From: Candidatus Thorarchaeota archaeon
Lineage (GTDB): Archaea > Asgardarchaeota > Thorarchaeia > Thorarchaeales > Thorarchaeaceae
NCBI GenBank assembly: GCA_048884785.1
Contig: JBHLQM010000002.1
Location: forward strand, 71,672 to 135,671
Direction of reading: 5' to 3'
DNA: 64,000 nucleotides
Position 1 is the stretch's first letter, and every line of letters starts with the position of its first letter. The notes below the pieces were generated by a model. The model saw only the letters and a program-made list of their open reading frames with translations, had not been told where the DNA came from and searched no databases. This document shows positions 48,091 through 50,660 of the stretch, piece by piece. Both the position numbers and the translations under genes were made by a program.

Positions 48091-49422
48091 CTACTTCAAA
48101 TTGTGCTTTTTGACAAAATCCTTCAAGACATCTTCCAAATTTGGCCTGCCTATCTCCTGCAGATCATATCGAATCCTGGTATTAGGTTTCTTTATCTCAA
48201 TGATCTTGGCGAGGTCAATGGGTGTCCCTATCACAACAGCATCTACATCAGATTTGTTGATTGTTTTCTCCAATTCCTCCATCTGCTTCTTGCCATATCC
48301 CATTGCTGGAAGTACATCTTCAAGATGATCATACTTTTCGAATGTGGCTTTAATGCTCCCTACTGCAAATGGTCTGGGATCCACAACTATAGCTCCTGCC
48401 TTTCGAGCCGCTATGTATCCTGCACCATATGGCATATCGCCATGGGTGACTGTTGGGCCATCCTCTATAACAATGACTCTCTTTCCTTTGATCTTCTCGA
48501 TATCCTCGATGAGGACTGGAGAAGCGGCATCAATTATCTGAGCGTTCGGATTAGTAGCTATGACATTCTCACGAACGAATTCTATATCCTCATAATCTGC
48601 TGTATCAATCTTATTGATCACTACAACATCAGCCATTCTAAGATTTGTTTCACCGGGATAGTAGTTCACTTCATGACCCGGTCTGTGGGGATCGACAATT
48701 ACAATTAGTAAATCTGGTTTGTAGAATGGAAAATCATTGTTGCCCCCATCCCAAGTAATAACATCTGCTTCTTGTTCGGCTCTTTCCAGAATTTTCCCAT
48801 AATCCACTCCCGCATAGAGAGTTATGCCCATCTTAATCATAGGTTCGTATTCTTCTCTTTCTTCGATGGTGCATCGATACTTATCCATATCCTCGAGATT
48901 TCCATATCGCTGCGCAATTTGAGTTGTGAGGTCAGGATCATATGGCATCGGATGTCTAATGTTTACAGGCTTCAATCCCATATCTACTAAGATCTGATTC
49001 ACTCGTCTGGATGTCTGACTCTTACCACAACCGGTTCTGACTGCACAAACTGCAACAACCGGTTTTTTGCTTTTCAGCATAGTAGTTTGGGTTCCCATCA
49101 ACCGGAAATCTGCGCCAAGTGAGGTGACCCATGCGATTTTGTGTCCAACTGTTTCGTACGGAAGATCTGAGTATGCCAATATACATTGTTCGATACCATG
49201 CTCTCTAATCAATTCAGGAAGTTTTTCCTCTGGATATATTTTGATTCCCTCAGGATAGAGCTTTCCTGATAGCTCAGGCGGATAGATACGGTCTCCAATT
49301 CCTGGTATCTGTTCAGCAGTAAAAGCAACAATCTCATAGTCTTCATTATCTCTAAAGTACACGTTGAAATTATGGAAGTCACGACCAGCTGCTCCCATTA
49401 TGATGACTTTCTTTCTACTCAT
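48091..49422 (-). CDS. arcE: Arginine synthetase-like protein (COG2403, often annotated cyclic 2,3-diphosphoglycerate synthetase/GTPase)
   Basis: GAAGRDFHNFN, AVRTGCGKSQ, RHPMPY, TIEEREEYE, WDGGNND, EDGPT.THG, PAMGY match the Thermococcales ArcE family as I recall it. Confidence 0.8.
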   Translation of the reverse strand: MSRKKVIIMGAAGRDFHNFNVYFRDNEDYEIVAFTAEQIPGIGDRIYPPELSGKLYPEGIKIYPEEKLPELIREHGIEQCILAYSDLPYETVGHKIAWVTSLGADFRLMGTQTTMLKSKKPVVAVCAVRTGCGKSQTSRRVNQILVDMGLKPVNIRHPMPYDPDLTTQIAQRYGNLEDMDKYRCTIEEREEYEPMIKMGITLYAGVDYGKILERAEQEADVITWDGGNNDFPFYKPDLLIVIVDPHRPGHEVNYYPGETNLRMADVVVINKIDTADYEDIEFVRENVIATNPNAQIIDAASPVLIEDIEKIKGKRVIVIEDGPTVTHGDMPYGAGYIAARKAGAIVVDPRPFAVGSIKATFEKYDHLEDVLPAMGYGKKQMEELEKTINKSDVDAVVIGTPIDLAKIIEIKKPNTRIRYDLQEIGRPNLEDVLKDFVKKHNLK

Positions 49423-49587
49423 TGCAACCACCTTGTGGTACCATCGTCGTATCTGGTGCGGAACCTAAACTCCTATGTTAAGAAATTGCCGGTATCGAAC
49501 TTCCATATTTCAGGATACTTTAAGCTGTCAATTATTCAGAGCAGAATTCGATTTTTTGAACAACCTCTGCAATAATGCTATACTTCC

Positions 49588-49617
49588 TTTTTCGAAACGT
49601 ACATTCCTTTCGAAAAA
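49588..49617. promoter_or_regulatory. Inverted repeat in the divergent promoter between arcE-like and E2F-like genes
   Basis: TTTTTCGAAA-N10-TTTCGAAAAA; each arm contains the palindrome TTTCGAAA. Confidence 0.45.
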
Positions 49618-49724
49618 TCGAAGAAAAAAGGAAGATGTAACACAAATCGTTAAATAGTAGGTACGCGAATTTAATGGAAGGTTGCCAGAGGAGCCTATCA
49701 TCTTTACTTGTATGGGGTGCAGTT

Positions 49725-50276
49725 GTGAAACTTGTTGAATTGGCTCGGAAGTCGCTTTCTATCCTAAAGGAGATTGGAGAGGAAGGAATTAGGAGCGATG
49801 AGCTTGCGGATGTTTTGAGGGTTCCAAAGAGAAGGGTCTACGATGTTGTTGCGGTGCTGAAGGCTCTTGATCATGTTGACACCAAAAGACGCTTCAATGG
49901 GACCACAGTCACTTGGGTTGACCGATCCAAAGAGTTCGTTCCTAAGAAAGAGTATGATATTTTGAAGTCTCGACTTGAAGACGAGAGTTCAGCAAGAAGG
50001 GAGATTCAAACACAACTGGCCGAGGTAAAAGAACAGCTAAGAATAACACGTTCAAAACTGAGGTTGGATGTTCAGGCAGTCGAATGCGCAAAGAAGACCG
50101 AGTTCAATACTACCTATCTCAGAATACGCGCTTTATCAGGACGTGGATTCAAACGAGTCGCTGATTCAGGGCATGAAGCCATTGTTGAAACTTATGAACC
50201 TGGACTCATTGTTGATCCATCTGAAGTGGAAATTGACGAGAATGAGTCAATTCTAAAGAATATCAAGAGCGTTTGA
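49725..50276 (+). CDS. E2F/DP-like winged-helix transcription factor with coiled coil and beta-rich C-terminus
   Basis: LADVLRVPKRRVYDVVAVLKAL...VTWV carries the E2F/DP RRxYD signature, followed by a heptad region. GGGGTG RBS before GTG 49725; ORF opens at 49674. Confidence 0.8.
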   Translation: MKLVELARKSLSILKEIGEEGIRSDELADVLRVPKRRVYDVVAVLKALDHVDTKRRFNGTTVTWVDRSKEFVPKKEYDILKSRLEDESSARREIQTQLAEVKEQLRITRSKLRLDVQAVECAKKTEFNTTYLRIRALSGRGFKRVADSGHEAIVETYEPGLIVDPSEVEIDENESILKNIKSV

Positions 50277-50279
50277 AAA

Positions 50280-50660
50280 TCAGTCTTTGAGGCGTAGTGT
50301 GACTTGACTGCCTCTTCGCACATTCTTGATATTATCCAGTATATCATCACTTGAAGTTACTGAACCAAGAATATTCACAGGACTGAATGTATTCATGTCC
50401 TGAAGATAGATGCAAAGGGAATCTCCAAGTGGCATGTATGCAATATCCCCTCTTTTTGCGACCTTTGTAGGTTTCAAATTTCCTTTGGAAATCCCTAGTG
50501 TGATTTTCATTTCACCTCTTAGGTATGCAGTTTTTCCTTCAAGTGGGAGTCTGGATTTAATTTCTTCAATAAGTAGAGGACCTAGAACTCGATCCAAAGA
50601 GGCAGTCAATATGAGACCTTTTTCAAATACAATCTCAATCGGAACATCACTCTCAGTCAT
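50280..50660 (-). CDS. Cyclophilin-like fold protein (DUF369/TM1367 type)
   Basis: LPLEG...GDIAYMPLGDSLCIY...SPVNILG. Confidence 0.8.
   Translation of the reverse strand: MTESDVPIEIVFEKGLILTASLDRVLGPLLIEEIKSRLPLEGKTAYLRGEMKITLGISKGNLKPTKVAKRGDIAYMPLGDSLCIYLQDMNTFSPVNILGSVTSSDDILDNIKNVRRGSQVTLRLKD

What the first reader, a model, noticed from the sequence alone, without database searches (positions are those of the whole stretch)
49725..50276. E2F/DP-like transcription factor with apparent coiled-coil and marked-box-like region
Seen: wHTH with KRRVYDVVAVL...W, then a ~40-aa heptad stretch, then YLRIRA...KRVADSGHEAIVETYEPGLIV. Established: RRxYD is the DNA-recognition signature of E2F/DP cell-cycle factors, followed by a coiled-coil + marked-box dimerisation domain (E2F1 from memory: VMVIKA...QAVDSSENFQISLKSKQGPIDV). 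Inference: a minimal, probably homodimeric E2F/DP relative without an Rb-binding tail, located beside the vWA cluster. Asgard E2F/DP-domain hits may already be reported; the full DBD+CC-MB architecture and this gene context are what merit attention.
Basis: partly seen in the sequence, partly recalled or inferred. Interest (0 to 1): 0.78.

Follow-up and report, generated by a model that had tools for sequence, protein, structure and literature searches.

The report
Known Asgard E2F-like transcription factor
This Thorarchaeota gene encodes a small DNA-binding protein truly related to the eukaryotic cell-cycle factor E2F, a family already published for Asgard archaea; its tail is not a detectable 'marked box', but textbook E2F DNA sites are conserved in front of the thymidylate synthase gene.

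Summary
Its N-terminal domain is a genuine E2F/DP-type winged helix: Pfam E2F_TDP scores 34.3 bits against a cut-off of 25.7, and RRxYD is invariant.

The 50-residue helix that follows has heptad periodicity. It aligns collinearly with the eukaryotic E2F coiled coil better than 40 heptad-preserving shuffles do.

The C-terminal beta-rich module folds confidently when given a deep alignment. No test detected marked-box similarity: Pfam, hhalign, HMM against reversed controls, Foldseek, VIA-align and the Atlas fold search were all negative. Short natural variants keep this module without the helix.

The gene is single-copy with no DP-like paralogue, so a homodimer is the likely form.

Asgard E2F/DP homologues are published (Eme et al. 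2023, Suppl. 4.1.5). This scan has met the family many times on other genomes.

Beyond the literature:
- A divergent cyclophilin-like gene lies convergent and immediately downstream in about 50 of 54 full-length loci.
- A TTTGGCGCG site is conserved upstream of thymidylate synthase in 26 of 30 family genomes. Controls gave 3/30, 8/27 and a 5% genome base rate.
- The vWA neighbourhood is not conserved outside Thor-like lineages.

The parts
49725..50276 (+). E2F-like transcription factor gene, 183 aa, GTG start (stop codon included)
   Evidence: ORF list and translation. Homologues are 183 aa with the same N-terminus. Single copy in the genome.
49725..49922 (+). E2F/DP-type winged-helix DNA-binding domain (residues 1-66)
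   Evidence: Pfam PF02319 scores 34.3 bits against a cut-off of 25.7. The AF2 wHTH has pLDDT about 90. hhalign against eukaryotic E2F gives 98.5%. PDB E2F8 4yo2 matches at E=1e-4.
49830..49844 (+). RRVYD recognition-helix motif (R36-D40)
   Evidence: Invariant in 24 Thor sequences and in 17 sequences spanning Asgard lineages. It aligns to RRIYD of E2F4 and E2F8.
49944..50096 (+). Long amphipathic helix, coiled-coil-like (residues 74-124)
   Evidence: AF2 helix with pLDDT about 90. Periodicity of 3.5-3.6. hhalign against the E2F coiled coil scores 20.7 (65%), against 12.3+-1.8 (max 18.0) for heptad-preserving shuffles.
50097..50219 (+). Asgard-specific beta-module (residues 125-165); not a detectable marked box
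   Evidence: AF2 with a 62-sequence alignment gives pLDDT 82-94 and 4 main strands. Conserved in all lineages, including short variants without the helix. No match to any PDB or Atlas fold or to the E2F/DP MB.
50238..50267 (+). Short C-terminal helix (residues 172-181)
   Evidence: Predicted in both AF2 models. pLDDT is about 58-62 in the C-terminal-only model, and the segment is poorly conserved outside Thor.
50280..50660 (-). Convergent cyclophilin-like gene (126 aa), the conserved neighbour
   Evidence: Pfam PF04126 at 6.7e-11. TM1367 (PDB 2ka0/1zx8) at E=3e-4. Convergent and adjacent in about 50 of 54 full-length loci across more than 10 GTDB families, and co-directional and abutting in one lineage.
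49609..49620 (+). Proximal copy of the conserved promoter element TTCGAAAAATCG
   Evidence: The only exact copy in the 3.6-Mb genome. Present with <=1 mismatch in 24 of 29 family promoters and paired in 25 of 28.
49549..49560 (-). Distal inverted copy of the same element (1 mismatch)
49650..49657 (+). TATA-like box TTAAATAG
   Evidence: Sequence. A TTTAAATA/TAAATA box sits at about -75 in most orthologous promoters.
49714..49719 (+). Shine-Dalgarno-like GGGGTG, 5 nt before the GTG
   Evidence: Sequence. GGGGTGC is conserved at this place in orthologues, which explains the apparent 'WGA' in longer ORF calls.

Best explanation
The gene encodes a member of the published Asgard E2F/DP-homologue family. 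It is a small transcription factor with three parts.
- An E2F-type winged helix reads DNA through the invariant RRxYD recognition helix.
- A roughly 50-residue amphipathic helix resembles the coiled coil (leucine zipper) of eukaryotic E2Fs.
- A compact beta-module is found only in Asgard archaea.

Because the gene is single-copy and there is no DP-like partner, the protein most likely pairs with itself through the helix. That would place two winged helices on a palindromic GCGC-core site.

The best candidate target in this lineage is the thymidylate synthase gene, whose promoter keeps a textbook E2F site (TTTGGCGCG).

The beta-module is not demonstrably the E2F/DP marked box. It probably extends the dimer or docks a partner. 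The obvious partner candidate is the divergent cyclophilin-like protein encoded tail-to-tail next to the gene in nearly all lineages.

Shown: family membership, domain layout, helix similarity, gene pairing and site conservation. Inferred: homodimerisation, binding to the thyA site and the partner role.
For: - Winged helix: Pfam E2F_TDP is above its cut-off, and R36/R37/Y39/D40/W64 are invariant.
- Relatives: an exhaustive profile search returns only Asgard relatives and eukaryotic E2Fs, with no DP and no TrmB.
- Full-length hhalign gives 98.5% over residues 3-110. The archaeal HMM aligns to 98 of 110 eukaryotic E2Fs up to positions 100-129.
- Helix against E2F coiled coil scores 20.7. Heptad-preserving shuffles give 12.3+-1.8 (max 18.0) and the reversed helix gives 12.7.
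- The gene is single-copy in a 91%-complete genome.
- The beta-module is confident with a deep MSA and conserved in every lineage.
- The cyclophilin-like neighbour is present in about 50 of 54 full-length loci.
- thyA promoters: SGCGCS occurs in 26 of 30 family genomes, and an E2F 8- or 10-mer in 18 of 30. The consensus is TTTGGCGCG.
- Controls: UvrC 3/30 and Toprim 8/27; genome base rates 5.1% and 2.5%; 0/19 in a family without the gene.
- Literature: Eme et al. 2023, Suppl. 4.1.5, reports conserved base-contact residues.
Against: - No multimer prediction or experiment supports the homodimer.
- The helix similarity is modest (65% probability), and natural short variants lack the helix entirely.
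- Nothing shows that this protein, rather than another factor, binds the thyA site. In this genome the site is imperfect (ATTGGCGCGATT).
- E2F-type 8-mers are not enriched genome-wide.
- Sites at the UvrC and Toprim genes are not conserved, so no wider DNA-synthesis regulon was shown here.
- The negative-control family has much lower GC and a different thyA subfamily.
- The cyclophilin-like family is wider than the E2F-like gene in Asgards (200/301 against 125/301 genomes). One short-variant lineage has none (f14, 0/11).
Confidence: 0.7

Rival explanations
1. One reading: the protein carries the complete E2F/DP architecture. On this view the beta-rich C-terminus is a true homologue of the marked box, and the helix plus module form a homodimeric version of the E2F-DP CC-MB dimerisation domain.
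For: - The domain order is the same: wHTH, then helix, then about five beta-strands.
- The helix resembles the E2F coiled coil.
- The language-model feature search of residues 118-183 put an E2F_CC-MB cluster first, at score 0.77.
- Earlier unchecked scan notes on other genomes describe a self-pairing tail shaped like the E2F-DP module.
Against: - No PF16421 or PF08781 hit at E<=10.
- hhalign of the module against the MB gives 0.3% probability, and the forced alignment has zero confidence.
- The MB HMM scores <=3.2 bits with inconsistent registers, equal to reversed controls.
- The Atlas fold search matches only the protein's own family.
- The 0.77 score is in the range reached by shuffled sequences and was not reproduced with a divergent member.
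- The module occurs without any coiled coil in short variants.
Confidence: 0.12
2. The protein is a TrmB-like archaeal regulator: a winged helix, a dimerising helix and a C-terminal effector-binding domain that senses a small molecule. On this view the E2F resemblance is only general wHTH similarity.
For: - A sub-threshold Pfam TrmB match (15.7 bits).
- JGI automatic names for two homologues.
- Full-length Foldseek hits include TrmBL2 and BusR, which share the wHTH + coiled coil + C-domain layout.
Against: - The TrmB score is below its cut-off (25.6), while E2F_TDP is above its own.
- Eukaryotic E2Fs themselves give sub-threshold TrmB hits.
- The RRxYD signature is invariant.
- No TrmB-family protein appears among the 67 hits of the exhaustive profile search.
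- The beta-module matches no TrmB C-domain.
Confidence: 0.05
3. Partner-controlled factor: the beta-module is chiefly a docking surface for the neighbouring divergent cyclophilin-like protein. That protein would switch the factor's DNA binding or stability, so the pair is the functional unit.
For: - The convergent pair is conserved in about 50 of 54 full-length loci across more than 10 GTDB families, while all other neighbours change.
- The two genes are co-directional and abutting (operon-like) in one lineage.
- In genomes with two PF04126 copies, the adjacent copy is the divergent one.
- All 7 genomes of the family that lack one gene also lack the other.
Against: - Convergent genes are not co-transcribed.
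- The short-variant lineage f14 keeps the beta-module but has no PF04126 gene in 11 genomes.
- PF04126 is common in Asgard families without the E2F-like gene.
- The joint absences may reflect a single unassembled contig.
Confidence: 0.3

Closest known systems
Asgard archaeal E2F/DP homologues (Eme et al. 2023, Nature 618:992, PMC10307638, Suppl. 4.1.5 and ESP table; arCOG02749)
   Same: It is the same family. 183-aa Thorarchaeota orthologues with GTG starts, and members from other lineages, are listed under E2F/DP PF02319. The conserved base-contact residues are as described there.
   Different: [quoted passage not shown] Here the following helix aligns with the E2F coiled coil above controls. 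A conserved C-terminal beta-module, a conserved cyclophilin-like neighbour and a conserved thyA site are added. This exact sequence was not found in the stored part of the table.
Typical eukaryotic E2Fs (E2F1-6; Pfam PF02319 + PF16421)
   Same: The RRxYD winged helix is followed directly by a heptad helix. These are the best non-archaeal hits of the family profile. The candidate DNA site, TTTGGCGCG, equals the E2F consensus.
   Different: There is no detectable marked box, no DP partner, no transactivation or pocket-protein-binding tail, and the protein is less than half the length. It is probably a homodimer.
Atypical E2F7/E2F8/DEL (two tandem E2F_TDP domains; PDB 4yo2)
   Same: It is the best PDB sequence match (E2F8, E=1e-4). 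Both work without DP.
   Different: E2F7/8 achieve two DNA-reading heads by tandem duplication within one chain. This protein has one head and a dimerising helix.
TrmB/TrmBL2 and BusR-type prokaryotic regulators
   Same: The general layout of winged helix, long helix and C-terminal domain is shared, and these proteins are weak structural neighbours.
   Different: Pfam TrmB is below its cut-off, the RRxYD signature is absent from those families, and the C-terminal domains are unrelated.

Membership tests
E2F/DP winged-helix family (Pfam PF02319) | Match to the family HMM above the curated gathering score | tested here: met
   34.3 bits against 25.7, residues 21-81 of the 200-aa frame. The same holds in 10 distant Asgard relatives.
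E2F/DP winged-helix family (Pfam PF02319) | RRxYD DNA-recognition motif in helix 3 and a Trp after the wing | tested here: met
   R36, R37, Y39, D40 and W64 are invariant. The motif aligns to RRIYD of E2F4 and E2F8.
E2F/DP winged-helix family (Pfam PF02319) | Reciprocal relation: the family profile retrieves eukaryotic E2F/DP proteins | tested here: met
   Every non-archaeal hit that was scanned carries E2F_TDP, and none is DP or TrmB. hhalign gives 98.5%.
Typical E2F with CC-MB (Pfam PF16421) | Coiled coil directly after the DNA-binding domain, homologous to the E2F leucine zipper | tested here: inconclusive
   The alignment is collinear with score 20.7 and 65% probability. It exceeds all 40 heptad-preserving shuffles (max 18.0). 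It is not significant as a stand-alone match (36%).
Typical E2F with CC-MB (Pfam PF16421) | Marked-box beta-sandwich domain | tested here: not met
   Searches were all negative. The single weak lead did not replicate. Caveat: only a monomer model could be made.
Typical E2F with CC-MB (Pfam PF16421) | Heterodimer with a DP subunit | tested here: not met
   There is only one PF02319 match and one family member in the 91%-complete genome. No DP domain hit was found.
Typical E2F with CC-MB (Pfam PF16421) | C-terminal transactivation and pocket-protein-binding region | tested here: not met
   The protein ends 18 residues after the beta-module, and no further domain was found.
DP (Pfam PF08781) | DP dimerisation domain | tested here: not met
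   No hit at E<=10. No DP protein appears among the profile-search hits. No DP alignment could be built for hhalign.
Asgard E2F/DP homologues (Eme et al. 2023) | Orthology to the sequences listed as E2F/DP PF02319 in the ESP table | tested here: met
   Thorarchaeota 183-aa entries and the Sif and Hermod entries in the table share the same layout and motifs. The exact sequence was not found in the stored part.
TrmB family (Pfam PF01978) | Match above the gathering score | tested here: not met
   15.7 bits against 25.6.

The most novel reading that the evidence does not exclude
E2F-type control of DNA-precursor synthesis predates eukaryotes. On this reading, the single-gene factor binds the conserved TTTGGCGCG site upstream of thymidylate synthase as a coiled-coil homodimer. 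The eukaryotic E2F-DP heterodimer would be a later duplication of this arrangement. The Asgard-specific beta-module would be the docking point for the conserved cyclophilin-like neighbour, which regulates the factor.
Probability: 0.2. Interest if true: 0.8.

Novelty: new member of a known kind. Interest (0 to 1): 0.45.

Why it matters
E2F/DP drives the G1/S transcription programme in eukaryotes, and its classic targets include thymidylate synthase. The Asgard homologues are catalogued, but the literature describes them as bare DNA-binding domains of unknown function.

If the factor pairs through an E2F-like coiled coil and sits on a textbook E2F site in front of thyA, then part of the E2F circuit existed before eukaryotes. 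That can be tested directly with recombinant protein.

The marked-box claim that made this finding look special is not supported. The protein family itself is already known, and this scan has met it repeatedly.

Tried and rejected
1. Marked-box homology was rejected after eight negative tests. The one language-model lead at score 0.77 failed replication with a divergent member submitted on its own.

2. A DP-like second subunit was sought in the genome and none was found.

3. The vWA cluster as functional context was rejected. It is present only in Thor-like loci and one other lineage, and absent from the Hel, Odin/Baldr, 'Ran' and Loki loci.

4. TCGRAAAATCG as a regulon motif was rejected. The 12-mer is unique in the genome, and no other strong site pair exists. 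It is also absent from the cyclophilin-like promoter and from other lineages.

5. Genome-wide enrichment of E2F 8-mers was not seen (294 observed against about 250 expected).

6. A wider DNA-metabolism regulon was not supported. Sites next to UvrC, a MutS-like gene and a Toprim gene looked suggestive in this genome. However, the UvrC site is not conserved (3/30), and the Toprim site is conserved only within the genus (8/27).

7. Autoregulation through an E2F-type site was rejected. Own promoters have SGCGCS in 2 of 28 cases.

8. Full-length fold searches gave only generic wHTH hits.

9. The NCBIfam search found nothing.

10. A homodimer prediction and a direct superposition on the E2F-DP CC-MB structures could not be made with the tools on hand.

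Full report
**Observation.** The window holds an open frame at 49674-50276 on the + strand. This is the true start: most of the 153 close homologues are 183 aa and begin MKLVELA. A conserved SD-like GGGGTG lies at 49714-49719. The apparently conserved 'WGA' in longer ORF calls is this ribosome-binding site read as protein. The opposite strand is closed.

**Organism and family.** Named homologues are almost all Candidatus Thorarchaeota. The genome is a 3.6-Mb assembly, 91% complete.
- An exhaustive profile search of 1.84 billion representatives found only 67 clusters.
- Full-length relatives of 165-183 aa come from bins labelled Loki, Hel, Odin, Baldr, 'Ranarchaeia', Hermod, 'Asgardarchaeum' and Hod.
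- In a sample of 301 genomes of the phylum, 125 carry the gene. It is nearly universal in some GTDB families (f1 69/76) and was not found in others (f9 0/68, f5 0/28, f22 0/21).

**DNA-binding domain.**
- Pfam E2F_TDP matches above its gathering score, 34.3 against 25.7 bits. TrmB scores 15.7, below its cut-off.
- R36, R37, Y39, D40 and W64 are invariant over all lineages.
- The best PDB sequence matches are E2F8 and E2F4.
- Every non-archaeal hit of the family profile that I scanned is a eukaryotic E2F, with either E2F_TDP plus E2F_CC-MB or two E2F_TDP domains. None is DP or TrmB.
- Profile-profile comparison with 123 eukaryotic E2Fs gives 98.5% probability.
- Membership of the E2F/DP winged-helix family is therefore established.

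**Helix.**
- AF2 predicts one long helix over residues 74-124 at pLDDT about 90. Conserved hydrophobic positions have a 3.5-3.6-residue period.
- The confident part of the hhalign alignment runs through residue 110.
- The archaeal HMM aligns to 98 of 110 eukaryotic E2Fs up to positions 100-129, that is, into their coiled coil, and never further.
- The helix alone against the E2F coiled coil scores 20.7 (65%, collinear 4-38 to 6-40). Column shuffles give 7.8+-2.3, heptad-phase-preserving shuffles give 12.3+-1.8 (max 18.0), and the reversed helix gives 12.7.
- The similarity therefore goes beyond generic heptad composition, although it is modest. This differs from the published statement that these proteins lack the dimerisation domain.
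- The gene is single-copy and no DP-like paralogue exists, so a homodimer is the likely form. This is inferred, not shown.

**C-terminal module.**
- With a shallow alignment the C-terminus was modelled at pLDDT below 50.
- With 62 non-redundant sequences from all lineages (A3), it folds at pLDDT 82-94. It forms a small all-beta module with main strands at residues 132-136, 142-147, 152-156 and 161-165, followed by a short helix.
- No marked-box test was positive. There was no PF16421 or PF08781 hit at E<=10. hhalign gave 0.3% probability, and the forced alignment had zero confidence.
- A eukaryotic marked-box HMM scored <=3.2 bits on the 62 modules with inconsistent registers. Reversed controls reached 1.3, and both medians were -1.4.
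- The language-model feature search put an E2F_CC-MB cluster first for residues 118-183. The score was 0.77, a range the tool says shuffled sequences reach. A divergent family member's module gave no usable hit.
- Natural short variants of about 120-130 aa keep the winged helix and the beta-module but lack the helix. They occur in two GTDB families (one of them labelled Heimdallarchaeota by its submitter) and in a Sifarchaeia entry of the published table.
- The module is therefore an autonomous, Asgard-specific domain and not an appendage of the coiled coil.
- Caveat: the E2F-DP marked box folds only in the dimer, I could model only a monomer, and a missing fold match is not proof of a different fold. 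I put marked-box homology at about 0.12.

**Gene context.** The conserved feature is the 126-aa cyclophilin-like gene (PF04126; nearest solved relative TM1367, function unknown). It lies convergent, 3 nt from the stop codon.
- The same tail-to-tail pair is found in the Thor, Hel, Odin/Baldr, 'Ran' and Loki loci, while all other neighbours differ.
- The pair occurs in about 50 of 54 loci with a full-length gene. The exceptions are a contig end, a second paralogue, one locus without it and one rearranged locus.
- In one short-variant lineage the cyclophilin-like gene is co-directional and abutting.
- PF04126 is wider in Asgards than the E2F-like gene (200/301). In genomes with two copies, however, the adjacent copy is the divergent one. 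The seven family genomes lacking the E2F-like gene also lack PF04126.
- This points to a functional link whose nature is unknown.

**Promoter.** A paired element, TCGRAAAATCG, lies at 49609-49620 and, inverted with one mismatch, at 49549-49560. It sits about 30 nt upstream of a TATA-like box.
- 24 of 29 family promoters have it with <=1 mismatch.
- 25 of 28 have two or more sites, against 0.13 expected.
- It is the only strong pair in the genome.
- It is absent from other lineages and from the partner's promoter, and its binder is unknown.

**Targets.** Earlier notes of this scan on other genomes claimed E2F sites upstream of thymidylate synthase and DNA-precursor genes. I tested this here.
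- In 30 genomes of the window's family, 26 thyA promoters carry an SGCGCS core and 18 carry a textbook E2F 8- or 10-mer, at -90 to -175.
- The consensus is TTTGGCGCG, with an invariant GCGC core. This genome has ATTGGCGCGATT at -148.
- Controls: 5.1% and 2.5% of all upstream windows in this genome carry these motifs. UvrC promoters have them in 3/30 and Toprim-primase promoters in 8/27, the latter within the genus only. The count is 0/19 for thyA promoters in family f9, which lacks the factor but also has low GC and a longer thyA subfamily.
- E2F 8-mers are not enriched genome-wide.
- The factor's own promoter and its partner's promoter lack such sites (2/28 and 0/28).
- The thyA site is therefore a robust and specific footprint that matches the E2F consensus. 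That this protein binds it is inference, supported by the conserved base-contact residues.

**Comparison with the literature.** Eme et al. 2023 (Suppl. 4.1.5) report Asgard E2F/DP homologues across most groups, with conserved base contacts. [quoted passage not shown] Thor orthologues of 183 aa are in their table. A 2024 review also mentions Asgard E2F. I found no paper describing the helix similarity, the beta-module, the cyclophilin-like neighbour or the thyA site. The library does not hold subscription journals.

**Verdict.**
- The protein is a member of a known, published family that this scan has met repeatedly on other genomes.
- The feature that made the finding look special, a full DBD + CC-MB architecture, is supported for the coiled coil at modest strength and not supported for the marked box.
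- The additions worth keeping are the conserved cyclophilin-like partner and the E2F-consensus site at thyA.

Noticed in passing
window 50280-50660 (-); loci L005-L011, L012-L060: A divergent Cyclophil_like (PF04126) gene is kept convergent and immediately downstream of the E2F-like gene in about 50 of 54 full-length loci from more than 10 GTDB families. It is co-directional and abutting in L069-L071.
   Followed up: yes
window 49549-49560 (-) and 49609-49620 (+): A paired promoter element, TCGRAAAATCG, lies upstream of a TATA-like box. It is conserved in 25 of 28 family promoters and is the only strong pair in this genome. It is not an E2F-type site and its binder is unknown. It may also serve the divergent gene at 48091-49431.
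   Followed up: partly
G000:C42:906-917 (locus L161), outside the window: An E2F-consensus site, TTTGGCGCG, is conserved 90-175 nt upstream of the thymidylate synthase (PF00303) gene in 26 of 30 family genomes. This genome has ATTGGCGCGATT.
   Followed up: yes
G000:C7:71447-71458 (locus L162), outside the window: The only perfect palindromic E2F 12-mer in the genome, TTTCGCGCCAAA, lies in an intergenic region 171 nt upstream of an FKBP-type peptidyl-prolyl isomerase gene. Its conservation was not tested.
   Followed up: no
loci L061-L068 and L069-L071: Short family variants of about 120-130 aa have the winged helix joined directly to the beta-module, with no long helix. One group is in bins labelled Heimdallarchaeota by the submitter.
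   Followed up: partly
locus L156 (DATKTP010000167.1): A full-length family member with Asgard-type neighbours sits in a bin labelled Candidatus Deferrimicrobium sp. (a bacterium), which is probably a mis-binned contig.
   Followed up: no
window 48091-49431 (-): A 446-aa gene with a weak CobW/HypB/UreG P-loop match is transcribed divergently from the E2F-like gene and shares its promoter region. The same neighbour is present in another Thor genome (L005/L006).
   Followed up: no
loci L008, L046, L051 (Odin/Baldr-type): A perfect inverted repeat, AGAGGTAT-N9-ATACCTCT, lies just upstream of the start codon of the E2F-like gene in these lineages. This promoter or leader element differs from the Thor one.
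   Followed up: no
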